A DNA stretch of 64,000 nt from Parasitella parasitica NRRL 2501 (taxonomy: Eukaryota; Fungi; Mucoromycota). A program made the translations under genes and the position numbers. The notes beneath the pieces are model-generated. The model worked only from the letters and a program-made list of their open reading frames with translations, had not been told where the DNA came from and made no database searches. This document shows, in pieces, positions 28,426 through 64,000 of this stretch; position 1 is the stretch's first letter, and every line of letters starts with the position of its first letter. The stretch is from NCBI GenBank assembly GCA_025201805.1, contig MU619256.1, positions 267,225-331,224 on the forward strand, in the 5' to 3' direction.

Positions 28426-28546
28426 CAGTCAAAAAAGGTTGGCCCAATAAAAAAAAATTGGTTAGCTTGAAATGAAAATGGGTCGCCAAGACAAAAATGG
28501 GTCACTGTTTTGAAGATGGATCATTTAATACGAAAATGGGTCACCA
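28426..28546 (+). repeat. Left TIR with three AAAATGGGTC direct repeats
   Basis: Reverse complement of 29806-29922; DR copies at 28475, 28494, 28533. Confidence 0.9.
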
Positions 28547-28599
28547 GTAAAGAGAAGCTAAGAGGAAGACCAAACCTCACTCCGAAGAGCCCCCACCCC

Positions 28600-29769
28600 T
28601 TGATGTAGTAAAAAAGGAAAGGGGATCATACATCACTAAGAACGAAGCAAAGGTAGTCAATTTGATCAATTTATTGCAAGAATTTGAGAATATGTCTATC
28701 AGTGAAGCGGGTAGAAAGGTAGGGCTCTCCAAGTCAACAGCTATTCGTAAAGCCAAGCAGTGGAATCAAATGACAAGCGAAATAGTTGAAAAGGGATTCC
28801 CTGATTCTATCGCAACCAAAGTAGGAAAGGGACGACCAGCAATACTCAAAGACGAACATACTGTATTTATCTTTGAGCTGCTAGCTAATGAGCCTTTTTT
28901 TTTTTGTGTATGAAAAAAGCTAGCTAATGAGCCAACATTGACAGTCGAAGCTGTTACAGACAACCTGTCAAAAGAATTTAGAGATATACAGATCACCCTT
29001 AGATCAGTGGAAAATCATATGAAGAAGAAGTGTCGCCCAACCTACAAGCGTATCATTCCTAGATATTATGGCAGGAACACGGATGAGACTGTTGCCAAAA
29101 GACGAGATGCGGTAGCATACTGGGTTAGCCAGAACATAGATTTTATAATTAAAGGGTGTTCTTAGATGAAGCTGGATTTAATAGGAATATGTATCGCTCA
29201 TATGGATGGTCTGAGGCTGGAACACCTTGCAAAATTGATGTTCAAACGAAGGGAGCAAATGTTAGCATCTTGGGTGCTATTTGTAAAAGTGGTTTAATCA
29301 ACATTATCCAGAAAAGAAGTTATACTTGGTGCTAGGAGTGGAAAGCGAACTCTAACTGGTGAGAAATCTCAGGCCCTCAAGAAAAAGGGTACTACCAGCA
29401 ATAACTTTTTTGAATACATAGAGCAAGTCCTCACGACACTTGATACGGCTAACATGAGCTACAAATATCTAGTTCTTGACAATGCATCCAATTCACAAGG
29501 CTGCACTTATTGAAGATTGGGTTGGTCAACGTGGCTATAAACTTCTCTTTTTGCCCCCTTATTCTCCTTTTTTGAATCCAATCGAAGAGTTTTGGTCCAA
29601 GCTGAAGACTGTTGTAAATAATGATCCCTCTTCTGTCAGGCAGAATGAAAAAATCTCTGATCGTATTCGCAATACATCATTTTACATCAGCAGAGAAGAC
29701 TGCGAGAATTGGATAAAGCATTCTTTGACGTTCTGGCAGAGATGCTTGAATTGTGAAAAAGGATTATAA
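28600..29769 (+). pseudogene. DD34E Tc1-like transposase pseudogene (HTH + DDE_3), with several frameshifts and an insertion
   Basis: HTH (MSISEAGRKVGLSKSTA), GRP, DEAGF, VLDNA/PIHK, LFLPPYSPFLNPIEEFWSKLK, split across reading frames. Confidence 0.9.
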
Positions 29770-29805
29770 GAGGCAACCTAAAAAGCATGCATTAAATTTC
29801 TATAT

Positions 29806-29922
29806 TGGTGACCCATTTTCGTATTAAATGATCCATCTTCAAAACAGTGACCCATTTTTGTCTTGGCGACCCATTTTCATTTCAAGCTGACCAATTATTT
29901 TTTAACCTTTTTTCGTTGACTG
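29806..29922 (-). repeat. Right TIR of the Tc1 element
   Basis: tggtgacccattttcgtattaaatgatccatcttcaaaacagtgaccc... inverted match to the left end. Confidence 0.9.
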
Positions 29923-46969: not shown

Positions 46970-48730
46970 TCATCCAATTATAGGCAGATCACTGTCATTA
47001 TCATCTTCAGAAGAAGAGGTAAAAGGACTTACAGACTCCTCATGAGCAGGGCTAGAGGATAACGTACCACTTGATAAATTCTGCAATGTGGTCTCGTTCT
47101 CATCCATGTAACATGTAGCAGCAGTGACAGGAGGCAAGCAGGCTACAGTTTTCCCGGCAGTTCTAATTGACCCTCTATGAGATCTACACGATGCTTTATC
47201 ATCTGAAGGAGAGTCTGCTTTCCGTGCAACCTTTTTCTTTCTGCCTCTGCGATTTCGCTTTAAAGAAGTTTCATTCTCGTAAACTGTGTAATCCTCTTCA
47301 TTGCTGCTATCATCATCAGAGCTCTGGTCTGTTCCACAGCCTGTTGAATCAGAATTTTGCGATTGCCATCCTCTACTTGGTATTACTCTAGGGACTATAT
47401 CCAGCTTATGGTGGTTTGATGAGACTTTCATACTCGTAGTAGTAGTAGTTGTAGCAGTAGCAGAAGATTCTTCGTAATCTGTAGTAAATGTAATTTGTCC
47501 GCTAAAATCGAAAAGGTTCGCAGCTTCGAGGATTTGATTTACTCGTTCGTCTTGCTGATCTTTTTCAATGTCAGTGTCAAGGGGTGGTTTGTGTGATCGA
47601 TGTGATGGCAGTGGCAGTGGTGGTGTTGATGATGGCGTCAGTTGATGCGATGATGATACTGGCGGTCTTAATGGCAGTATTCTGTGCAGCGCTCTCTTGT
47701 CCTGGACGCAATTTGTGCTGGTTGTGTGCGTTTGAATTACATATCTGTCTTGCTGCGTTTGAGAAGGTCTGAATTGAGCGATCTCCCTTGTGGTCGTGTA
47801 TATTTGATTTATTTCGTTTGACCTTGCAGGAATGTTGGCTGCTAGCATTCAAAAGCTGAGTTACGCACAATTCTTATATGATTGCAAGAAAATACACTTG
47901 CCTATAAAGGTTCCATGTTCGATGCTGACTGCATGTCTAAAGTTTTCTGGATCTTTTGAATTGTATTCACTGTACGACTCAAAGTACGATCCGTCCTTTA
48001 ATGCGCTCATAAAATGATCATCTAGCCGTGGTACAAAATATTTCGAATCTAATCTACCACTGCTAAGAGAAACCTGGTCGGGTAAGGCGTATTCATTCCT
48101 CATATCTGTGCTTGTTTTGATGGCGTATTTTTCAGGTTGGTAATGTGGTCCTGAAAATACAGAGATGTCCAAACGTCTCTTTTGTGTGCCAGACACTTTT
48201 GACGGAATGCATGGCTCCGGTTTCAATGTTAATGTTGTTGTTCCTTTGTGCATGTTTCTCAGGGATTGGTTTTTCGGGGCAAAAGATGGTATAACACTCA
48301 CTCGAGTTTTGTATGGTATATGTGATTGCTGGCCATTTGCTTTGTCCATGGGAGATGGAGATGAAACGGCTTTCGTTTCGCTGGACGACGTCGGCATCAT
48401 GGCAAAAGATACTGCTGGAGACTTTGTCCGTATAATGGCAGTTTTATAAAACGTATCAGCGTCTTTTGGTTGCTGCTGTTTCTGTTGCTGTTGTTGGATC
48501 ACAGTTGCTGGAGAATGGACTAATGGAGGCAAGTGGATATATAAATGATAATACTCTGCGAAATGCGAGTATTGCTGTGTATCGTGATAGAGTGCTCCAA
48601 GGTATACACATGGTTTTTCTCTACAGTTGTCATCAGATGGATGGAATGTTGGATAATAATGTCGAATGGCTTACGGTATGGTAATGTCTTTATTGTCGGT
48701 TGCTATGGTTTCGTCTATTTGAACGTTCAT
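46970..48730 (-). CDS. Hypothetical low-complexity protein; exons ~48730-48675, ~48620-47902, 47841-46970
   Basis: Two long ORFs joined in frame by a GC-AG intron (47842-47901); 5' exon MNVQIDETIATDNKDITIP joined by a GT-AG intron; NLS-like KRNRRGRKKK. Confidence 0.65.
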
Positions 48731-49018
48731 AACTTTTATTTCAAAGTTGTTAGTTTACAAGTGTAAAAAATGTGAATGGTTGACCCTTGAATTACCGTGC
48801 TTTCAATAGAGAAAAGGATGTTTACAAGGAATCGGCTGCTGTCAATTGAAGCATTGCAATCTAAAAAACAAGGGAAAAAAGATTGGAAATTTCAATACGC
48901 GTCAAGTTTGAGCAAACGGTAGATGCTATTGCATCATAATGTTTGCTCGATAAAAAAAGGTGTGTGTGTGTTCCATTGGTTTTCGCACAACTTCTTTCGT
49001 GTTTAATTCATATTTAAG

Positions 49019-49658
49019 ATGGTGGTAAATGCGCATCCTTTCTACTGCAAATCATGGAAGCTAGTTTATTAACAGATATGTTTAGCTTGTTCTTGCTATT
49101 GGGGATTTGCATATTCCTCATCGAAGCTATGGCCTTCCAGAAAAGTTTAAAAAGCTCCTCGTTCCCGGAAAGATCCAAAAGATTTTGTGTACAGGAAATA
49201 CAGTTGACAAGGAGACTTTTGATTACTTGCGAACTATTGCAGGCGATACTGTTGCTGTGAAGGGCGATTTCGACGATACAGCTAGCAAGCTACCTCAGGC
49301 TAAAGTTATCACAGAAGGCGAGTTGAGGATTGGCATTATTCATGGCCATCAAATTATTCCTTGGGGAGACCCTGAAGCTTTGGACATCACAGCTAGACAG
49401 ATGGAGGTGGACATTCTATTATCTGGACATACTCATAAATTTGAAGCGTATGAATATAATGGACGATTCTTTATCAACCCTGGCAGTGCCACTGGCGCAT
49501 ACTCTTCTATACCCGATGCTACAGAGCCTATTCCTTCCTTTGTATTAATGGACATTCAAGGCAGCTCGGTTGTCACCTATGTCTACAAGTTAATAGATGA
49601 TGAAGTCAAGGTCGAAAAGCTGGAATACAAGCGTCCTGCCGATGCAAAAATGTTGTAA
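49019..49658 (+). CDS. VPS29: Retromer subunit Vps29; 6-nt first coding exon, intron 49025-49085
   Basis: [57 protein letters not shown]. Confidence 0.96.
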
Positions 49659-49813
49659 TAAAAATAATCTCCCTTTCTCTCACATGTACCACTCTTACTT
49701 GTGTATGTTTCTGATTGTTCTGTCTAAAAAAAAAGTCGAGGTTTCCTTTGCTTTTTCGCCCCTTCTCCTTTTTTTTAATCTTTTATTTCTCTTTCTCAGC
49801 AGCTATATACAAC

Positions 49814-50935
49814 ATGTCATTGTCGACTTTAAAAGAGAATGGCTACATTCAAGTGGCCAAGGAGAGAGAGAACCCCCCAGTCAAGATTTACTATGAACTT
49901 CATGGCGATGGCCCTGAACATGTCGTTCTTATCATGGGTATGAGTACAAACATGTTTTTTATCGCACACTGTAACTAAAAATTACCTCAAATAGGACTAA
50001 ACTCTTCATGTTTCGCTTGGGAATTACAAACAAAATATCTGGCAGACACTGGGAAATACACAGTGCTGATTTTTGAGAATCGTGGTATGGGCCTATCCGA
50101 TGCGCCAAGGGGTCTTTACAGGTAAAAACTATTAATAATAATAATAAAAAACCCCCCATGCGAGCATCGTATTGATTGCCTGGTATGCATCTATATAGCA
50201 CTTCACAAATGGCCCAAGATGTCATTGACTTGCTGGATCATCTTGGTTGGAAAGAAAATGTGCATTTAGATGGTGTTTCAATGGGCGGTATGATCTCTCT
50301 TGAGCTAGTATCTACTTGGCCTGAAAGATTCGCATCTCTCGTTCTGACAAGCACAACTTCTGGCAGACAGATCCCTCCCGTAAGCAGCTATATATTTGTA
50401 TTTGTGCATTCATAAATTGACATGTAAGCTAATTTTACCCACACAGTTGAAAGCAATTACAACCTTAGGTAGATTAGTGTTCGTAAAAGATCCCAAGGTC
50501 AAAGTTAGTTCTGCCATAGATCTTGTGTATCCCCCTGAATGGTTATCAGCAACGCCATCCATAGATAGCCCTGAAATGGCTAAATTCGAGACCAATAGAG
50601 ACATGCTTGTGTCAATGGCTCTGGCAAGAATCGACCGTAGTAGGCCACAAACGTTAGGCGGTAACTTGGGTCAAATGGCAGCCTGCCTTCGCCATTATGT
50701 ATCTGATGAGCGACTTTTGAAGATTAGACAATCTGGGATACCAGTTTTAGTTATTACAGGAACATGGGATAACTTGGTTAATCCTCAGAACTCTTTCCAT
50801 CTGAGCAAAGTACTGGATTGCCAACTTGAGCAGTTCCAGGGTAGCGGCCATGGCTTACCGGGCGAGCAACCTGTTCGCTACAACAAACTACTAGATGAAC
50901 ATTTCTCCAGAGCAGCAGCTCCCAAGAATAAATAA
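49814..50935 (+). CDS. Alpha/beta-hydrolase fold protein
   Basis: YYELHGDGP, ENRGMGLSD, GVSMGG nucleophile elbow, GTWDNLV, GSGH catalytic His. Confidence 0.88.
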
Positions 50936-50972
50936 ATAATCTGTGAAAATAGAAAACAAAACGAGGTCTTTA

Positions 50973-53900
50973 TTAAATCCAAATGGCACGCTTTATCTTG
51001 TATCCCATCTTTTTAAATATGCCATCTGTCTTTTCGGCCTGATCTAAACTAATGATTGGCTTTTGAAAAACAAACTGTGTATCATGTTCATCGTGTTTGC
51101 AGGCTTTAGCAATGGCTTTGACAATGTCCTGGATCTGTTTTTTGCAGGTCTCGACTTGTCCGTCCAGCTCGCCTAAAATGTTGTATCTGACTGCCTTGAA
51201 ACTGACGGAATCGGTTCCTTCAAATGCGTCTTTTACGGCCGGAATGGTTATGTCGTTGTCTTTATGATCAATGTTGATGTCTCCGAGACTTTGATTGTGA
51301 ATACTACCTGTATTCCATCGAACATGCTCGCCGTCTTTGGAATGATTGATGATTAAACCGTAGTTTTGGTCTTCTGAGCGAGAAGCAGGCGTAAGAGACG
51401 ACAGAATATATTCGCCCATTTGAATGGAGATGATAGTGTCTAAACCGAGCCTCTTGAATTGAATTACTTTTTCCAGGGCGTAATTATAACTACAAATGTA
51501 TAGCGCCTTTTCGGTCAAGAGCAGTACCTTTTCTTGGAACTCTTTTCTGGGTGATCTGTTGTACATATATGTAAGGTCAGTATCTATGTACATGTACCTT
51601 TCATTATCATGCACACTCTATACCTTTGTTTGCCTGATTCTTCACCAGTAGGTGAAAGCAATGTCCAACCTTTAATCAGATTCTCTTCGTCAGATACGAC
51701 TATTTCACTGCTGATACCAACTATATACATCCAGGAATACTTTGTGTTAAACGCTATGCCAATCATCAACATAAACAACTTACTAGCATCGGATCGAATC
51801 TTGGCCCATCTTCTTTCAATGCCAGGCTCGGCAGACATTTTCGTACTCTGAGGCACATGTCTAAATATTTCTGATTTATGATAGCCCAAAATATAATCCA
51901 CAGTAGCCTGTCTCCAGAAATCTTTGATGGTATTAAAATAAAGTCTTGCTAATGAATTGGACGCATCGTTCATCATGCCAGTGATATTTCGTTTACCGGT
52001 TCTATGTATCAATACCACGAATATCGGTATACATGATGTTGGTGACAATCCCTCCCATTGCTTACCTCGTAAAATCACCCTTTAAGGCACTTGTACCTGC
52101 ATACATTCTGGATATCATATCGCCGTTGTTTGCCCACGCTTCGTAAAACATAATAAGCGTTTAGATATACATGTATATGTAAATAAAGAGAGAGAGAGAG
52201 AGAGATTACCATTGTTGAATATTTTTTCAAATTCATCATAGTATTTTATGCCTTGCTCTGGGTATTCGGTGATACCGAAGCGCATCAATTGCAAATTGAG
52301 TACGCTACGGCCAAATGCACTCTACACGACAAAAATCAGCACATGTGCTACAAATAAAATGATTTGTTTGTACCTGAACTACATTTGTTCGATCTAGGCA
52401 ATCCATGCAGTTCTACAACACCAATTTAGCTTCAGTTGGCATCAAACTAATGTTAATGTAACCACACGTACTGTTCTAAACACACCAGATTGTTTGCAAT
52501 AAATTATTGCCTCGCCATCAATACTAGCCGTTTCCCAGAAATATCTATCCATAATGAATTGAAGTGTCAGTAATTGATCACATTGTTGGACATTGTGCAA
52601 CGTACTGAATTCTCGAAAGGTCATCGTATAAACTTTTGCTTAATTTGCTAATATTCTCAAATTTCATCCCTTTGGTTTCTTTGTGAAAATCAAATTCGAC
52701 GTATCTATAAAGTTTTGAGCGAGTGAGTATTTGGTGATTCTGCTGACACATATCACACGTACTTAATGTTGGGGTCTGCTAATTCTTCCACATGATGTCT
52801 GTATTCTGCACCAACGATCGCCTCTCTCCCTGTTAATTCTGTCAAATTAACAATGATTTGTTTACCGTAGAGCTTTTCTTGTGTTTTGAAATGCTCGTGA
52901 AAGGCCGAATGGTTTTCTTGTTGCGATCTTTCCAAGCTTGGAACAGGGTGTAAGCTGTAAGGGGATTGGGTCCAAAACACAGGTACTGTGTAGTCGTAAC
53001 ATTGTTAGTAAAGAACGCTCGATCAGTTTGTCTGTGTGTGTATTTTACTTGATCCTCGAGTTTGAATAAACGAAGCCACATGAGTTATTCCATCTTTCCG
53101 AAAAATAACAGATTGCTCTGTCTCGACAAAATTGGCAACTTGCCCGTCTTCATTCACGCCTCTTCTTTGATATCTCATGCCTGCTCTCTCACGACTTCTT
53201 CTTGAAATCAATACAAAATCAAAGTCGTACCCATCAATTTGGCACGGTTCGATTTGCAACGTTCCCTGCATCACAGGTACTATCCATTCATCAAGCTAAG
53301 GTTACACCTTAGCATATGCCGATTTCTTCTGTCCTTTTCTTACTGTTTTTACCTTTTGAGTTACAAAATCACGAGTAAGGTGTTCATTCCACCAAAATCG
53401 TTTATCCACCTTTTTCCACATTGGAATATTGGGATCATCATATTCAGAGCTTTCTTGGCCCTTTTCGAGAGATCGTTGGAAGCTGTTTGTGATATCTAGA
53501 TACTCAATATGTAATTCAGCGACCAGCCACCCTCTTTTATATATTCATATATATATATATATATATATCTTGAACGCTGCTGCTCTTACCACAAGTATTG
53601 GAATATAAAAACATGGATCGACTAAACATTTCAGTCACTTGTCTAATTAATCTCTGCTCCAAAGCATCTTCCTCGTTATTATCGTCATCATTGTCGTTGT
53701 TTTCAAATGATGATATAGACAAGGTGGAGGCAGATGAATTTTGCGAAATGGAAGAGGAATTGGAAGGAACCAATAGACTAGGATCCGCCAAGTCTATCGG
53801 TTCCTTGTTTATTGCATCCAATACTTGTGGCTGATCAATCAATGTATCCTCATCCATCGACAATAGATCAGCACTACTCCTCTTCTTTGCAAATGTCTTT

Positions 53901-54547
53901 TTGATACGAGTCAGGAACGAGTTGGACTGTGTTAGTTGCACGGGCGGTTTTCTCTTTGCTGCTTCCTGATCCGCTTCCTGCGTTGTCGTTACTGCTTCTT
54001 GCTCGTCGTCCTTTTTTTTTTTTTATGCGCATCAATATTTGGGTTACATGAGAAAATGCCTTGCTATTGTTTACCTTTGTGTCCAACTTTTGGCACGCCT
54101 TGCAGGGATCAAAGCTCAAGCAACTCACGCCGCTTATCACATACACAGGATTCCCTAGTAAATGACCTCGACGTTGAACAGAGGATATCACGACCATGTA
54201 TTTTTCTATAAACAGAAAAAGTGGTCAGCTACACTTGACTTGAAGTCATCTTCCTGGCACTTCTTCCCACCTTTGAACCCCTCAATGAATCCAACAACAC
54301 CATAGATGTTGTACTTTTGAACAACATCTTTTGGTTCAAAAGTGTCTAGCATGATTGCTTAATTGTCATGATTGCGTTTTAATATTAAATAATGCTGTTT
54401 ACCTCTCCGAGTCATTTTATGCCCATCAAAATGGATCTCTAGAATTCTATCGTCTTTAACAAGCACAAACGAGCTTGTAGTAACATAGAGCTTAATCGTT
54501 TCGTTCTTTTCAGTTGCACCATGTGAGCTATCTGAGGTACAACGCAT
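50973..54547 (-). CDS. Sac1-domain phosphoinositide phosphatase with C-terminal hSac2 domain (INPP5F/Sac2-like), multi-exon
   Basis: LISRRSRERAGMRYQRRG, ANFVETEQ, QTRGS, RTNCMDCLDRTNVVQ (CX5R), WANNGD.ISRMYAGT; C-terminal VLLLTEKALYICSYNY. Confidence 0.9.
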
Positions 54548-55211
54548 ATTGAATGTATTGAATGTCTATAAGAAAACGTAAAGAAAAAAGAAAAGATGTG
54601 AACAGCACCGATTTTTATATTTGTACCCAGCTGCTTTGCTTGATGCAATCACGCTACTACACAACTACACAATACGCACGAAATCAAGCACTACGGTAAT
54701 TGGGAATAAATGATACGTTTCGTTGGATATCCACACAAATGTGTGTGGTTCTACACTCATGTTTTGAGCATCTTGTTCAATTAAAACGGCTCTCTATGTG
54801 ATAACTACAAGTGATCACCGTTGTATACGGAGGCTCGGGAGTTACAAGGGGGGCGCTGAGCACATTAACTATGCCTCTTAATAACTGGTTTGTCTTTCCA
54901 TTTGGTTTAGCAGGGTTTATGAGATTATGTGTCCTTTGAAATTATATAGGTTTCCTATGCCGCATTACTGCTCAAGAGAAACTCTAAACTTTTGGAATCG
55001 TATTGAATCCTCAAACAAAATCGGTGGGTGGCCTACCAACATGCATTGAAGTAGCACTCTGAATTCTAACTTTGAACAAAAATACGTACGCTAGTATTGA
55101 AAGCCAACGATATAAATGCCAATACAACGACTATACACATCAAAATCTTTTGCGTGAAATTCCATAAAACTAGGTTTGCCCAGACTTTTTTCAAATAGTC
55201 ATGCAATGTCC

Positions 55212-55251
55212 AATGGCACATTTTGTAACAGAATGGCACATTTTGTAACAG
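55212..55251. repeat. Perfect 20-bp tandem duplication AATGGCACATTTTGTAACAG x2
   Basis: Direct reading of the sequence. Confidence 0.85.
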
Positions 55252-55594
55252 GCGAGTAAAATAATTGTTTTTGAAATGACAGTTGACAATGTGTATTCAT
55301 GAGGTCGTAAACTGCAAATCGTATACCATCCCTTGCTTTGCATAGGTTATAAATATAAGATAAGGAACTGTTGCAAGATGGTTGAATTTAATAATAAAAG
55401 AAAAATCATTATTTTGCTGAATCACAGAATATTATTGTTTACGTGCTAATGAATACAGATACTCTCTCACCCAAATTGTCGCATAAAAGACTAGAGCCAC
55501 TTGCATTGATTGTAGTACAGTCATGCTTATAGAAATTGGCGTTATGTCACAATCAAAATTTTGCTTTTCAAAGATCCTCTTTAAAAAAAACAAA

Positions 55595-57625
55595 ATGGAA
55601 GAATACATAATCGAGAACTACCAGGACTTCGATCCTATAATATGCTTTAATTCCATGAAATACCAAACCACAAGAGGGCTTGCAGAAGCTGAATTCGAGT
55701 CGGTCATTAACAACTTACGTAACAATGAAGACCTTAGTGTCCGATTGATAAAATGGTGTAAAAATGTGGTCGAAAATGATTTTAACGTAAGTATAATAAT
55801 ATAGCAAACATAAAAGCTTATTTGGTACTGACTTATTTCTCGAAAAGGTCATTAAGACAAACGAGGCGCTTGTATATTGGGAGCTAAAGACAAAGGCGAG
55901 AGAAGAGATCACTAAATCATTGAATAAGGCAGAAGAGAGTCTCAGTAAACGCGAACTAATTGAAATTGAAAAGAAGAATGTTTTGAAGACCGTACGTGAC
56001 AAGATGACGCTTGTGAATAAGCTAAAGAGGAAAGCAGAAACCATTGAAGCAGCAAGCCAAGAAGTAATAAATTTAGATAGAACACAATTGCTATACTTTG
56101 AAAGTTAATAATTTGTTATATTTACTTATCAATATAGGAGCAAGACCCTGTGTTGTTTGGGAGCAAGAGTGTTGGTACGATATTAAAGAATGCTGGAGAA
56201 AACGAGAGCAAAAGGTTTTGGAGTTTGAATAAGAAAGAGCAATACATGATAAGGTATTTGACTTTAGTTAGATTAATTATTAAAACCTAATGATCTGCTG
56301 TAGTTTATGCTTGAATTCGATTCTTGATCTATCTGATGAACGTGAGAGCTCTCAGAAACTATTATTTACCGATGAAGAATGGAAACTTATTGCAGGCCAA
56401 TATGGCCGTAAATTTTTTTTCAATCGTAAGAAAATGGAACAAAAAACCAAAGAAGTGAACAAGGTTTTTATTATTTTAAAGTTATTCTAAACTTTTGCTG
56501 AAATGATTTTTATTTTTAGCATTTGCGACAAGGCGACCTTGACAGGGCGTATACGGTATCTAGAAAGCTTGAACTTGATAATTTGAATGGACCAGATGAA
56601 GCATTGTATTTCATATACAGTCATATGTAAATATAAAATACAAATATATACTTGCAATGCTTACTATTTTTAATTCTATTTTAGTGTAAACCTCTACCGA
56701 AAAAGAAGAGATGTTTTAAACCCAAAGTCGAAGAAAACCCCCACAGAGTACAATTACATTACTAAAATATGGGTGAATATTTTAGAGGCATTGTTCCCTG
56801 AAGACAAGATCTATATCAAATGGTAAATATATCTTCATATCCACATCTTGATACCTTTAAACTGACCTTCATACTTTAGGGGGGAATCACATTCGGCAGC
56901 ATGCAAAGATGACTACAAAGTCGATGCCAGAATCATCGTCCAAGTGAATGGGGAAGTCAACAATCTGAGTAACATGGAGGCCTCCAGACAATTGACGAAT
57001 CAGAAAATTGACGAGGATCATCTGAAACTCATCATTGAAAGCAAGTGCGCCTTGGACAACATCATCATGAAGACCTCCTCACTCGTAGAAGAGAACTTGA
57101 ATGTTTTATTTATTCAACTTAGTGGTAATTACACATTTTGAGAGCTGATGAAATCAAATACAAAGTAACGAGCTCTTTTTGCGTTTTACTAGGCGCTCAG
57201 TGTGAGGTGAATATATTATCTCTTCTTGCACCAGGGCTATATGTTGTAAATCAATATTGCAATCTCAACATCACCAACTCCCTACCTGAGTTCGCCGATA
57301 ATGCTTCAAAGTGGTTTGCATCCCTCTTTGCGATTAAGGTCAGAACTATTATAACGTATATTTTACTTCTTTAAATCTAACGTCAATAATATTAACAATA
57401 AAGGAAAGTCTCTATAAACTTTCATCATTAGTCGAGGTAAATACTCCCAAATCCGCCACCTACAACGAGCATTTCCGTAGACACACCCACACTGATAACT
57501 TCAGTTATGCCGAATGGATAAGAAGCACCTTCTATCCCCCAAATGAAGATAACACCTCCTTTAGTCTCCCCCAGCATTTGTATGATGCACCAACCGCTCA
57601 ATCACGTAAGACCACTAAGCACTGA
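55595..57625 (+). CDS. Multi-exon hypothetical protein with a C-terminal restriction-endonuclease-like (PD-(D/E)xK) motif pattern
   Basis: Spliced reading: TEYNYITKIWVNILEALF, WGES, YKVDARII, NMEAS, KIDEDHLKLIIESK, IQLSGAQC, GLYV, WIRSTFYPP; GT-AG introns link the ORF fragments. Confidence 0.55.
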
Positions 57626-59891
57626 AGTATTTTTATAATTAGTGTATTCAAAAAAGAATACCAATTATATCCTAATGACAAATGAATGAGCAAAATGTAT
57701 AAGGTACGTTATAAAAAAATAGGGGAAATTATTTTTGGTATTATTGTCCTTTGGAAGCCTTAAATAACAATTCAATAATAGCTCAAACTTGAGTTCTTTT
57801 ATAAATAATGTTAATCCTTTAGTAATAAAATAAATGAAATTTATTCGATTTGTTTGTATGTATGATAAATTAAGTAATCTACAGGTTGAAATTAATCACA
57901 CAATATGAGAAGAACCATAAACTATAGCATTTGACAAAAGAACTTTTTTTTTTAATTTAAGCTAGGTAAAGGGGGAGTAAAATACTTTGGAATAACCAAT
58001 TTGTAAAAATGATGAAAGGCAATATACAGTCTTTTTATGGTTTCTGTAAAAAAAAGTTCAAATAAATGATATTGTCATGGTGTTCGCGATGATATATATT
58101 AGGGTTTCCGATCAGAAACTTTTTATGTCTGATAAAGGCCAAGAAGTTTCTGATAAAAGCTGAGAGAAAGTAGATTAAAAATGCAAGAATAGAGAACTTT
58201 TATAATGACAAGCGAAATTGCGACGCCCTGACTAATTTATTTTTGATCAAACAGCCATTGTGCAAGAGCAATAGGTATGACTCTCATTGTTTTTTATTAC
58301 CTCAAATGAAAATTTATCAACACCATCGACATGTACTTGAGAACCTGAAACTAAACAATCACCAACGAGCCACAATAAAAAATTGTTTGAATTTCATAAT
58401 CTTTAAATGTTGATAAATTATTTCAGATGTATCCGTATATTAGACATCGAAATAAGCTCAAATATTTAGACAAGTCTATAGACCTGTAAAGGTATTTAAA
58501 CTATATTACAAAACTACCAAGGCATTAAGTTGTACTACCTGTCAAATTGTGCATTTACACAATGGCAGTTTATCCCTGAATCTAAGTTTAAACCAACCAT
58601 TTCATTCTGTTTTCTCCTCTAATTATATGTCTTTTCAAAAACCATAGCAGATTTTTATAACTTCGCATTATCATTTTATGTTACATCTGTCAAGTCAGCC
58701 ATATTTAAAATCAAAGAAAGAATATATAGTCGGGACTCGTTATCACGGACGGGTTGGTGTACAAAAATGTGTTTGGTATAGCGAGTTATTCCCTATTCAG
58801 AATTTGACACTCTACAGCCCAGTGTCTGGAACCTGGAACCTACCAATCTACCAGAAGCTTATTATGAAGCTTAACTTTTGTTAGTAAAATTACCCTTAAT
58901 CTCAATCCTAGCCTCTATTTACTTTCTATTTTACATGTTTAGCACTATAATTACAAAAAAGGAGCTCTTGCACTGACACTAAGCATTATTATAAGCAGCA
59001 ATGGAAATAGGGCTTCTCTGTCATAAGCAATTAGCAACTTATGAATTATTTACAAATAACAAGGGGTTCTTTCAGCAAAACATTGTATTCATTAATTATC
59101 CTCTTCCGCTTCCAAATCGATGAGCCATACCTGTTTCTCATATTACTATGAAGAAAGGTATACTTACTTTATAGAGCTGTATCATGTACTAGAATTGTTA
59201 TTGACGTGATATCATCTCCAGATAGATATTTTTTACAGCTTAAAAGCAATTTTTTTAGCTTAGAGCGTCATTTTTTGACTGATTTTCATAATCAAAAGTG
59301 CCCTGAAAACGCCAGAAATAATATCAATTGGGAAAAAACTATGTTATATATGATTTTGGTGCAATTTGAGCATGATTTTTTTTTCGATGCAAAACCACGG
59401 ATTTTTTCGATTTTTTCCCTGTATGAAGGTATAGCCATAACTATGGTAAACTTCTCCAATAAGAATCGTTTCAGAAACTTTTAAAGCCAATAGGAAAGCC
59501 TCCACAAAGTAGAGGACCCAATCAAAAGGTCGCCACATCGATTGAATTATCCAATTGACAATTGTCCAAAAAGATCCAATCAATGAACTTCGATTGGTAT
59601 GAAAGTTTCGTATGTCGCCCTGCATATAATAATATGAATGTATAGAATGAAGTATATTCACCGCATACATTAGATTCATTTAAATTTTTCTTATTGATTG
59701 GAAAGATAAATTCTTCAATAATACATATATATTGATTCAAGATATGAATTTACCACTTCAAATTAAAAACGGGGTTCCTGAATTTGACAGTTCACCTCGT
59801 GCTTGATAACCAAAGTTTTTTTTAAAGGGACATATAAAAGTCAAGATAATCAGTGCGTTTGATATTTTTTAATTTTATTTCAAATAATACC

Positions 59892-62800
59892 ATGCCTCGT
59901 TCAGGAAGAAATTCAGTTGTTGGTGGTAAAAGAGGCAGACGACCAGGCGCAAAGAATCCAAATGCAGGTAGACGTCCTCAAATTAAGGCCTATAATAGCT
60001 CTCAGAATCAAACAAGTTTGTTATCACATTTTGGTGCTGGTGCTAGTAGTTCCGGAAGCAATAGCAGTATTGAGAACAGCTTGAATAATTCTAATAATAA
60101 TCCTGCCAATGTTGCAGAGATTCAGCCCAATGACTTTGCCGAGGAAAATGACTCCTCTGATGAAACGATGAGAGATACAGAAGAGGTACACAATCAATCA
60201 AAATAGATCTTAAATAATATGTGATGACCTCTAACTTGAGTATACTTCCTATCTTTAAAGATGCAAATTGATTGCGACCAGTCTTCCGAAATTAACACAT
60301 ACGGCATTGATATTGAGTACAATGGATCCGAACAAGAAGTTGACGTCGATAGCGATATGTTCGATAGAATTGAAGATGATATTACAAGCAGTGCTGACTC
60401 ATCGTATATAACTGAATACCTGAAATCAATTCAAGACAAATTCAGACGCAATGAAATGCCCCAGGCCTACAAAGATGGCACATTCTGGTATTCAAATCAA
60501 GCTGCCTTCTTCAAGTTGAAAAAGGATGTAAACGCTGATCAAAGAAACCTACTTCAGCCCAGGGTTTTTTTATGGTTTCCTCATTATCTATTTTATGAGG
60601 CAGACAAGAAATTCAAATGCCCTGAATGCTCCAAGAACAAGACTGCGCCTGAGTTTATGAACAATGATGGTTATACCAAGAATCCCCTAGCTAGAAGAAT
60701 CATTGACATTAAAGAGTAAGTACTATATACCGCTTTTCAGACTATCCACTGAATTAATAGTTACATAGTTGCTTTTATCTCATGTCATGCTTTTATAAAT
60801 GTAATAAATGCAGCTGCAGGATTATTGGAACAGATATTGAGCTGATCAGACAATTGCCAATCATTGCACAAGCTGAATTCCCTGCCTTCTTGACTAAAAA
60901 AAGTGGTATATCAAGAGACCTTGCAGATTTGATGCGTCCCCTTGTACAATCCTCGACTGGTCCACTACGATTGAGCAATATTTTGCAGGAGCTACATACC
61001 AAACGATATGACACGCTTCAATACCAATATCTAGCAAATTATAAATTCAGAGTCGACAATCCTGGCTTGAGATCTCTTGCGGTTCCTGCACCAGAGTTTT
61101 CCAAATTCAACGACAAAAACGGCTACAATGGATATTATCCATCTGCCAATTATATCAGCTTCGTTTACACGTCTTTAATGGAAGTATTCCGCCAACATTT
61201 GGACAATCAAATAATGAAAGTAGATGGAACTATCCTTAAAGGTGACCACACTTTCAAAGCAGCTAGCAACATCAGCTCGATCAAGAATGGTGTCAATGTC
61301 TTTGGTGCTCTATACACTGTCACCAACGAATATGAAGAGATTCGACTACAATCATTTGTGCCAACTAAATCTCTTATTCACCTGATAACTTCCTTTGACA
61401 AGATGTGGAATGCTTATAACATGTACGGGTACGAGCAGCCAAAACTCTTTTACACTGACAATGTGCGGTCTGATCGCCATTTTCTAGAGGAGCACCTGCC
61501 ATCCTTGCTTGAAAACGTACAACATGTCGATGGACTCCCAGTCGCTGTGATTCCCAACAACGTGAACATTTTTGTTAATGATACAGTGCAAGAAATCAAC
61601 GAATCTTGTGAAAGAATCCTTCGGGATTACTCTGATCTTCCGGTGCTTGTTCATTTTAAGAGATGTACCAACAATGGACGCTCCATTGCCCGCGTATCAA
61701 TTGGAACCTTTAATTTTGAAGTTTTTATATTCAAAATAATTGCCAATACTTTTCCAATTTGTTTACGAAGACTATTTGAAGACGAAAACATCAACAAGAT
61801 TGGACATAGACTAACTGCGCTCACAACAAGTCTAAACGAGCAATACCCTGCGTTGCAATTGCAGTTGAAAAATGCGAATGAGTGGTCTACATATTGCAGC
61901 AATCGTTGTATCAACAGTTCCGGTCCCAAATTAAAAAACCTTTGTCAGGATCTTCTCAGTGAAGAATTCCCTAGAGAGCCTACGCTTGTTGAATCTGGTA
62001 GATGGGAGCTTGATGTTCTTGACAATGCCCAAATCCAGAGGTTAGCCTTGGAAACTTTCTACATGATGAAAACCTATTCAAAAGCCAAAACAATTGAAGC
62101 TTCGTTTACTAGCTTTGATCAGGTCCCGTCTGTAGACACATATGTAGCAATATTCCCAAGGCATTCGGTAACAATGACTCCCTCGGCGTATGGCTATATT
62201 AGAGACAAGTCTTCTCAAGAATTTGGATTACCCATGAGAAGACATTTGCTGAGCAATGTAACAGTGTTGATTGAAGTTACGAGGGTCATAAAACCAAACA
62301 TGCGTCTTCCTGAGCATGGACCCAAAAAAACATTGGCGGATACTGGTTGCTCTCACTCATTTGTAGTGGTCAATAAGTCTATGCTTCGTAAGTGCTCAGA
62401 AAATCACGATTCTAGTAATGTTGAAGAAGTAATGGATGACCATATCAGAAGCATTGATGATGCAGGTGATTTGCAGCATTATGAAGAGCAACTCTCCAAT
62501 GATGATATCGCCAGTCATCCCCTACCTACGAATGATACTGTGGTCCGCAAGAGCAGAATTTTGAAAGATGTGTTTCATCTTATTGATATGCTGAAAATAC
62601 CTATCAAACATTCCTTGTGTGCCGAATTTAAGCGGAAATACAGAGACATCCTCTTGGTGCCTGATCTAGTCGACAAGGCCAATGTCACTCGCGTTCTTTT
62701 ATCTACAAATACTACATGGGAATACAAGATTGCGTCGAATCCTTCTTGGGTCTGGAAACGGGTCAAGCGTTGTATTCCACAGCCCGAACAACTGATTCCT

Positions 62801-64000
62801 CTTCTTAAAAAGCTCTTTGAAGACTATGGTCCTATCATCTGTGATGATATTAGGAAACCATTGTTTGATAGAGAGGCGAAGAGAACCGCAGAAAACATAC
62901 TGGAAACAGTTCGGCTGGGACATGTATCTGACCCTGAAGATATCCCACTGTATACCTTGTACGCTTATGACAAAAATGGTCTTGCCAAGTATCATTGTTG
63001 TCGTGGCACTAATAGCCTTGAAGGTAAAAGATATATGTAAATACTTTCAAATACAAGCAAACCTAACACTTTATTTGGCACAGGCGGCGTGCATTCTAAT
63101 ATTGTGAGAAAATTTTCAAGTATCAATGGCAGTATACGCCTTGCTGATGCTGCTCTTGCCGACTACCGCTTGAGACACAATGCGAATGTAAGTATATAAT
63201 ATACTACAACTATTTGAACGCATAGCTGAATATTTGGTATTAGGTTGGCTCAAGGCATAGATTGAACAAGAAATATGTTGGACATTATGATCCTTGGCTG
63301 ATACACTCAATCAATGCTCTTCGCTACCACCTTCTTTTGCCTAAACAATCATCTTATTTTTGTATTAATAATCTCTCGCCGGTCGACTTCGATTCTTCAA
63401 AAGAAACTTTTGGTATAACTCCTCTCCCACACGCTCTCATTTCGTTCTTTTCCATGGAAAGCTATATACCAACTATTCCGCTAAGAATTTCGAGCCGGTC
63501 AACTAACATTCAACGGAGATCTACCACCACCTCTACAATTACATCACCCACGACTTTGACGGCATTTTTAGCATTATCAGCTCTACCACTTGCAGCATTT
63601 ACTGCAGAAGTTGACACTAACCTAACAAACTATAACTACCTTGCTGAACATCAAGGAACCAAATATGCAGTCGTTCATGTACATACCTCTGAAGAAAAGG
63701 CAATATTTAGAGATCTAATTTTCACGCAAATCAACAATCAATTCAATGATTTTGGAAGAAGATCCTCTCCAGACTTCTTGAAGCTATGCAAACATTGGTC
63801 TCGCATCAGCAATGGCATGACTATCTTCTATAAAACACCTGAACTCTTAAGAAATTACTACAACAAAAGACAACAGGCAAAAAAAAATTGTTGAGGCTGA
63901 GAGATCAAATAGGCTGACAATCCGCAGGATGAATGTTCTTGTTCATAACCCCTCAAGAAGTGTCGTTGTACCAGAAAACTCTCGTGTCAACGCTCAAGAG
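59892..64000 (+). CDS. Large DUF6729-type DDE transposase-like protein with an inserted 3'-5' exonuclease-like domain; exons 59892-60185, 60261-60715, 60769-63023, 63084-63187, 63244->63894; probably continues past the window
   Basis: VFLWFPH, CPEC..Y.CNKC zinc ribbon, ARRIIDI, EFPAFLTKKSG, GDHTFK (D), YTDN (D), KDVFH (DxxH), RGTNSLEGGVH (E), GHYDPW. Confidence 0.7.

What the first reader, a model, noticed from the sequence alone, without database searches (positions are those of the whole stretch)
59892..64000. Intron-containing DUF6729-type DDE/DxxH transposase with an apparently dead DnaQ/WRN-like exonuclease nested inside its catalytic core
Seen in sequence: the spliced protein (>1200 aa) has a CxxC...CxxC zinc ribbon, then candidate catalytic residues D (GDHTFK, 61244), D (YTDN, 61457), DxxH (KDVFH, 62567) and E (RGTNSLE, 63020). 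Established knowledge: this D-D-(C/D)xxH-E layout belongs to the MuDR/hAT/P/Kolobok/Dada/KDZ group, where in MuDR-type enzymes the DxxH sits only a few tens of residues after the second D. Here ~370 aa separate them. The first half of that gap (~61560-62090) reads like a WRN/RNase D-type 3'-5' exonuclease (FPICLRRLFEDENINKIG, LKNLCQDLL, SGRWELDVLDNAQIQRLALE). The ExoI D-x-E, ExoII D and ExoIII YAA-D positions appear replaced (VHFKR, HRLTALT, RLALE). Inference: a poorly characterised DNA-transposon lineage, or a domesticated derivative, that captured a nuclease fold and kept it as a non-catalytic nucleic-acid-binding module. This is the best candidate for an undescribed system in the window.
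Basis: partly seen in the sequence, partly recalled or inferred. Interest (0 to 1): 0.78.

Follow-up and report, generated by a model that had tools for sequence, protein, structure and literature searches.

The report
Dada transposase with a dead exonuclease
This is a multi-copy, spliced fungal gene with the layout of the known Dada DNA transposases; the exonuclease-like domain nested in its core has lost its catalytic residues and is likely a decaying passenger rather than a new module.

Summary
Kojima & Jurka 2013 (PMC3706591) describe Dada transposases of Laccaria and Ectocarpus with a DnaQ exonuclease between the second D and DxxH, and a 2017 survey implies Dada in Mucoromycotina. The window is Parasitella parasitica by a host gene. 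All four introns appear in one RNA-like run. D409, D480, DxxH850 and E1001 are intact. The insert folds like WRN exonuclease (Z 21); the core matches the IS256/Mutator enzyme ISCth4. What is new is the dead state. 127 of 169 relatives keep DEDDy, while this clade and at least two agaric clades lost it separately and kept DDE. The dead domain stays in frame but drifts faster than live ones: 53% identity at 82% core identity, against 68-86% in live pairs. That fits a relaxed structural passenger better than a co-opted binding module. Several diverged and broken copies exist, which favours a mobile element over domestication. Termini, target-site duplication and target gene were not found.

The parts
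59892..64000 (+). Dada-type transposase gene, five exons within the window (59892-60185, 60261-60715, 60769-63023, 63084-63187, 63244-64000); runs off the window end; at least 1288 codons
   Evidence: four GT..AG joints in the RNA-like run X7; one X7 contig goes on about 620 nt past 64000
60618..61099 (+). N-terminal CxxC...CxxC zinc motif (C218, C221, C261, C264) and DUF6729 region
   Evidence: Pfam PF20499 E 2.6e-11 over the first 113 residues of the exon-3 frame; motif positions
61226..61500 (+). RNase H half 1: strands 1-4 with catalytic D409 (61244) and D480 (61457)
   Evidence: secondary structure of the model; D2 invariant in alignments A1-A3; D1-D2 spacing 71 against 68 in Dada-U6_DR
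61532..62098 (+). DnaQ/WRN-type pseudo-exonuclease: ExoI D-x-E lost near 61655, ExoII D is L601 (61820), ExoIII Y/D are R674/E678 (62039, 62051)
62099..62545 (+). small beta-rich segment plus acidic low-confidence linker between the exonuclease and strand 5; function not assigned
   Evidence: secondary structure and pLDDT; present in relatives with intact exonuclease
62546..63023 (+). RNase H strand 5, DxxH (D850 at 62567), helical insertion domain and catalytic E1001 (63020)
   Evidence: ISCth4 match; DxxH and E columns conserved
63871..63894 (+). A-run with one extra A in the window, giving a premature stop; probably an assembly slip
   Evidence: one A fewer at 63879 in X1-X5 and X7, at full depth in each; frame then open
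59424..59891 (+). presumed 5' non-coding arm of the element; left end likely between 59424 and 59464, not fixed
   Evidence: multi-copy depth from 59474 on; contig starts at 59464 in X1 and X5; a TA-flanked repeat ends at 59421

Best explanation
This is likely a copy of a Dada-superfamily cut-and-paste transposon of Parasitella, whose transposase keeps the D-D-DxxH-E residues while its inherited DnaQ exonuclease domain has lost its own catalytic residues and likely persists as a folded passenger. Shown: the exons and splicing, the intact DDE/DxxH residues, the exonuclease homology and its lost residues, several related copies, and descent from relatives with a live exonuclease. Inferred: the RNase H core cuts and joins DNA with two metals as IS256/Mutator-type enzymes do. 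The exonuclease sits between the helix after strand 4 and strand 5 of that core. Any frameshift or unfolding there would destroy the transposase, so the domain stays in frame and folded after its activity became dispensable. The 2013 paper guesses that the live exonuclease trims cleaved 3' ends; in this lineage that step would be skipped or left to host enzymes. Insertion into tRNA or snRNA genes, usual for Dada, is expected but was not shown for this family.
For: Published Dada layout identical. Fish Dada motifs G-x-I-L-x-x-D-x-T-x-K, [TS]-V-x-N-E-[WY] and Y-x-D-N, read by eye from a paper's dataset, all match this protein and 51, 54 and 78 of 169 relatives, against 0, 0 and 3 of 120 control transporters. 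Atlas neighbours of an exonuclease-less relative are chordate DUF6729 proteins at 0.95-0.96, then Mutator. Core fold: ISCth4 Z 10.5, rmsd 5.6, 252 aligned for this protein; Z 9.6, rmsd 3.5, 246 aligned and Foldseek E 1e-4 for the exonuclease-less relative, followed by P element, integrases and Hermes. 127 of 169 relatives have DEDDy intact; 92 of 169 show the whole D-D-DxxH-E set, most others being partial. The dead clade (support 1.0) nests among Mucorales relatives with intact DEDDy (0.90-0.95). Relaxation: 53% exonuclease identity at 82% core identity, against 68-86% in the 7 intact pairs with core 75-90%. dN is 0.35 in the exonuclease against 0.06-0.09 in the core, with synonymous sites saturated. 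Three Apophysomyces gene models lack the domain. Copies: summed depth 3-6.5 times the unique flank in X2 and X3; contigs at 90-99% identity; frameshifts, deletions and truncations in sister copies.
Against: No terminus, target-site duplication, target gene or empty site was found; no genome was available and the right end lies outside the window. No tRNA or snRNA lies in the window. No full-length comparison with a named Dada protein could be run; the link rests on architecture, short motifs and Atlas neighbours. Summed contig depth is not a copy number, and a segmental duplication could explain the near-identical copies. The dead domain is still under purifying selection (dN/dS roughly 0.09-0.2, a rough figure because dS is saturated), which a binding role would also give. 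The Apophysomyces losses may be gene-model artefacts. RNA support comes from one run, and those contigs may come from sister copies.
Confidence: 0.72

Rival explanations
1. The dead DnaQ domain has been co-opted as a non-catalytic DNA- or RNA-binding module that holds transposon ends or helps find the target gene, as pseudo-DEDD domains do in Exd1 and Egalitarian (their roles are recalled).
For: In frame and folded over a distance that saturates synonymous sites. The same dead motifs occur in all 11 full-length members of a sister cluster. At least three separate dead clades exist, several with E at the ExoIII D position. Exd1 and Egalitarian are among the fold matches.
Against: It evolves faster than live exonucleases at equal core distance. 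It has gained no positive charge. Its position inside the catalytic fold is enough to explain retention. Relatives without the domain exist as gene models, and the paper reports the domain in only two host species.
Confidence: 0.15
2. It is a domesticated, immobile host gene derived from Dada, like dDada of carps and minnows.
For: Spliced transcripts exist. No termini were found. A domesticated Dada is on record.
Against: DDE and DxxH are intact here, whereas dDada often mutates them. Many diverged and broken copies exist. Introns are normal for mobile Dada. It lies next to nested high-copy repeats. Sister-cluster proteins sit on isolated 5.1-6.0 kb contigs in 9 of 11 full-length cases, as collapsed repeats do.
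Confidence: 0.07
3. It belongs to a separate, unnamed DxxH superfamily that only resembles Dada.
For: The N-terminal cysteine spacing (x2...x39...x2) differs from Dada-U6_DR (x4...x34...x2). Fungal C-terminal zinc motifs are mostly CCCC rather than CCHC. No small-RNA target was seen.
Against: Same exonuclease position, the same motifs at D1 and D2, and the same spacings once the insert is removed (D1-D2 71 against 68; D2-E about 189 against 176). Relatives are abundant in agarics, the group of the type elements.
Confidence: 0.06

Closest known systems
Dada-1_LB / Dada-2_LB (Laccaria bicolor) and Dada-1_ES (Ectocarpus siliculosus), Kojima & Jurka 2013, PMC3706591
   Same: Intron-containing DDE transposase, N-terminal four-cysteine motif, DxxH, and a DnaQ/WRN-like exonuclease between the second D and DxxH.
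   Different: Those keep all four DEDD residues; here ExoI is deleted and ExoII and ExoIII are replaced. The host is Mucorales.
Animal Dada families (Dada-U6, -U1, -tRNA, -5S), PMC3706591 and PMC8869645
   Same: Motifs round D1 and D2, D1-D2 spacing, and core length without the insert.
   Different: Dada-U6_DR has only 176 residues from D2 to E, so no exonuclease; those families have proven small-RNA gene targets and 6-7 bp duplications, not shown here.
ISCth4 transposase (IS256/Mutator family, PDB 6xg8)
   Same: Best solved fold match for the core.
   Different: About 11% identity; bacterial; no exonuclease insert or DUF6729 region.
WRN exonuclease (PDB 2e6l) and pseudo-DEDD domains such as Exd1 and Egalitarian
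   Same: Fold of the insert (Z 21.1, 15.9 and 15.6).
   Different: WRN is catalytically active; the binding roles of Exd1 and Egalitarian (recalled) are not shown for this domain.

Membership tests
Dada superfamily | DDE triad in an RNase H-type fold with DxxH after the second D | tested here: met
   residues conserved; fold match to ISCth4; distances between the three acids could not be read from the models
Dada superfamily | Sequence similarity to named Dada transposases | tested here: inconclusive
   three short motifs from a fish Dada match and Atlas neighbours fit; the 2013 protein alignment file could not be read, so there is no full alignment
Dada superfamily | N-terminal CCCC zinc motif | tested here: met
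   C218, C221, C261, C264, 145-191 residues before D1; inner spacing differs from Dada-U6_DR
Dada superfamily | C-terminal CCHC zinc motif | not testable with these tools
   lies beyond the window end; 36 of 110 relatives over 900 aa end in a cysteine cluster, mostly CCCC
Dada superfamily | Introns in the transposase gene | tested here: met
   four GT..AG joints
Dada superfamily | Insertion in a tRNA, snRNA or 5S gene with a 6-7 bp duplication | tested here: inconclusive
   no such gene detected in the window; a 13-nt tRNA 5' stub would escape these scans; the hexamer TAGCCA at 59432 is within chance; right flank unavailable
Dada superfamily | No terminal inverted repeats | not testable with these tools
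   only one end lies in the window
Exonuclease-bearing Dada subgroup | DnaQ domain between the second D and DxxH | tested here: met
Active DEDDy exonucleases | All four acidic residues plus the ExoIII tyrosine | tested here: not met
   columns read -, -, L, R, E
Domesticated Dada (dDada) | Mutated DDE/DxxH and a single copy following host phylogeny | tested here: not met
   residues intact; several diverged copies

The most novel reading that the evidence does not exclude
Fungal Dada transposases have repeatedly (at least three times) turned their nested exonuclease into a non-catalytic nucleic-acid-binding domain that changes how ends are processed or which small-RNA gene is targeted, giving natural live, dead and deleted versions of one transposase module.
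Probability: 0.15. Interest if true: 0.6.

Novelty: new variant of a known kind. Interest (0 to 1): 0.33.

Why it matters
The role of the Dada exonuclease is only a one-line guess in the 2013 paper. Natural lineages with the domain alive, dead or absent, all with an intact DDE core, show that it is probably dispensable. They also give a ready comparison: do duplication length, end trimming or target choice differ with exonuclease state? The work also links the orphan Pfam domain DUF6729 to Dada-type transposases. It is a modest addition to a known superfamily, not a new system.

Tried and rejected
No whole genome was held, so there was no genome-wide copy search or flank alignment. Rfam and ARAGORN found no tRNA or snRNA in the window or in two relative-bearing contigs. 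A PDB sequence search with the single protein gave nothing significant, and Pfam does not see the dead exonuclease. No relative was found in viral contigs. The two hits in prokaryote genomes are short intron-bearing contigs in one MAG, read as eukaryotic contamination; a Sporosarcina-labelled cluster member is read the same way. Runs with 0.00 share looked like empty-site strains, but the one laid (X10) lacks the unique flank too, so it is another organism or lineage and says nothing on empty sites. No RNA holder is on record; X7 is a guess that behaves as RNA. Horizontal transfer was considered and dropped: the window itself is Parasitella by a host gene at 100% identity. The TA-flanked high-copy repeats at 58027-59421 were considered as the element's left arm and read instead as unrelated Tc1/mariner-type derivatives. 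TAGCCA at 59432 as a tRNA nucleotide 8-13 target is within chance, 0.12-0.23 expected per 41 nt. Earlier findings of the scan: none. Literature: DUF6729 gave 0 papers. Dada with exonuclease gave only the 2013 paper and one casposon paper, seen as a listing only. The inactive-exonuclease query gave 0. Repbase itself and most subscription papers are not searchable, so a dead-exonuclease Dada may be recorded there.

Full report
Observation. The region holds one long gene on the + strand. Splice signals give five exons: 59892-60185, 60261-60715, 60769-63023, 63084-63187 and 63244 onward. Contigs of one public run that behaves as RNA (it also splices the host genes) skip exactly these four introns with GT..AG ends. 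The window's frame stops at codon 1253. All six runs of this organism that cover the place carry one A fewer in an A-run, and that reading is open to the window end; I read the stop as an assembly slip. A host phosphate-transporter gene is 100% identical to a Parasitella parasitica protein and 83% or less to the next hits, which include Mucor species.

The insert. An AlphaFold model of the exon-3 frame matches WRN exonuclease over residues 258-446 (Foldseek E 4e-9; Z 21.1, rmsd 2.4, 182 aligned). That model was built on an alignment rich in live exonucleases, so I also tested by sequence. An HMM from 119 intact family exonucleases scores this protein at 42.9 bits, against at most 1.4 for 200 shuffles. 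ExoI D-x-E lies in a short deletion, ExoII D is L601, and ExoIII Y and D are R674 and E678. One acidic residue out of four remains, so by established knowledge of DEDD enzymes two-metal catalysis is very unlikely.

The core. The model's secondary structure shows strands 1-4 with D1 and D2, then the insert, then strand 5, DxxH, a helical domain and a final helix bearing E. The first non-exonuclease match is the IS256/Mutator transposase ISCth4 (Z 10.5, rmsd 5.6, 252 aligned). A relative without the insert (an Apophysomyces gene model, pTM 0.75) gives ISCth4 first (E 1e-4; Z 9.6, rmsd 3.5), then P element, integrases, Transib and Hermes at weak scores. The tools do not return coordinates, so convergence of D/D/E in space was not measured.

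What it is. Kojima & Jurka 2013 (PMC3706591; I read parts 1-3 of 4 of the text and supplements S1 and S4; the protein alignment file was unreadable) define Dada as intron-containing DDE/DxxH transposons. They state that the Laccaria and Ectocarpus elements carry a DEDDy exonuclease between the second D and DxxH with all four residues kept. The fungal survey PMC5751038 (passages and one section) reports 1,023 fungal Dada in four phyla, and Dada is not among the superfamilies it lists as missing from Mucoromycotina. PMC8869645 (passages, two sections and part 1 of 109 of its supplement) adds targets and a domesticated fish Dada. Three motifs that I read by eye from a fish Dada sequence there match this protein and 51, 54 and 78 of 169 relatives, against 0, 0 and 3 of 120 controls. 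D1-D2 spacing is 71 against 68 in Dada-U6_DR. The nearest Atlas clusters to the insert-less relative are chordate DUF6729 proteins. So the architecture is known.

What is new. A profile search found 1,861 cluster representatives at E below 1e-30. Of the 169 proteins in hand (the query, 24 word-search hits and the new ones among the best 150 profile hits), 127 have D-E-D-Y-D intact; 138 have a residue at all five columns. A tree on core columns only (139 of 169 rows long enough; 48-row subset for supports; FastTree) puts this protein, two Parasitella gene models and an unnamed sister family in one clade (support 1.0). That clade nests among Mucorales relatives with a live exonuclease (0.90-0.95). 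Two other dead clades, of seven and two agaric proteins (Marasmius, Lentinula, Hymenopellis, Mycena), branch separately with supports 0.999 and 1.0, and most of their members keep D-D-DxxH-E. The exonuclease is thus ancestral and was switched off at least three times. Three Apophysomyces models lack it altogether, which may be real or a gene-calling artefact. I found no paper reporting the dead form, with the caveat that Repbase was not searchable.

Passenger or module. Against a sister-family locus, synonymous sites are saturated (pS about 0.8) while dN is 0.35 in the dead domain and 0.06-0.09 in the core. The domain is constrained, but four to six times less than the core. At 82% core identity the dead domains share 53%, whereas the 7 intact pairs with 75-90% core identity share 68-86%. 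An agaric dead pair behaves the same way (77% and 45%); the two-member Mycena clade does not (64% and 58% over 81 columns). Net charge is neutral, like live domains. This favours a relaxed passenger that must stay in frame and folded because it interrupts the catalytic fold. A binding role is not excluded.

Mobile or domesticated. In two runs whose contigs equal the window over 47000-58265 with no difference (they may not be independent of the window's source), depth is 26 and 39.6 on that flank and 3-6.5 times higher over the gene. Contigs identical to the window at 62182-62556 have 1.8-2 times flank depth. Summed depth is not a copy number, but the runs also hold contigs at 90-99% identity with frameshifts, deletions and loose ends, and NCBI has three further partial Parasitella models. 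This is the pattern of a transposon family with young and decayed copies. The left end probably lies at 59424-59464, next to a nest of TA-flanked high-copy repeats. No duplication, target gene or empty site was found, and the right end is outside the window.

Verdict. It is a new variant of the known exonuclease-bearing Dada transposases, of modest interest. Its value is that live, dead and deleted versions make the untested role of the Dada exonuclease open to comparison.

Noticed in passing
window 28427-29913: Decayed IS630/Tc1-type transposon with 106-nt inverted arms at 96% and frameshifted DDE_3 pieces (Pfam E 3.5e-13 and 4.7e-9).
   Followed up: partly
window 58027-59421: Nest of high-copy repeats (summed depth up to about 200 times the unique flank), starting TA-CAGTC and ending CCCTG-TA; probably non-autonomous Tc1/mariner derivatives.
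   Followed up: partly
window 62031-62877: A truncated, frameshifted sister copy (about 93% identical) lies inside a 2.4-kb contig of the RNA-like run at depth 349, far above the 2-18 seen for the rest of the gene: a transposon fragment carried in an abundant transcript.
   Followed up: no
window 55487-57625: Multi-exon ORF set upstream with no significant Pfam match, single-copy by depth and covered in the RNA-like run; not identified.
   Followed up: no
run X10 laid on window 47000-64000: Related repeats in this other organism or lineage differ mostly by C>T (114) and G>A (30) changes, which may reflect methylation-driven decay.
   Followed up: no
L002, L003 and protein P0170: Fungal-type, intron-bearing Dada relatives sit on short contigs in records labelled Alphaproteobacteria and Sporosarcina MAGs; probably contamination by collapsed fungal repeats.
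   Followed up: partly
window 59425-59453: Imperfect palindrome near the presumed left end, containing the hexamer TAGCCA; could be a subterminal repeat or a tRNA 5' stub, but is within chance.
   Followed up: partly
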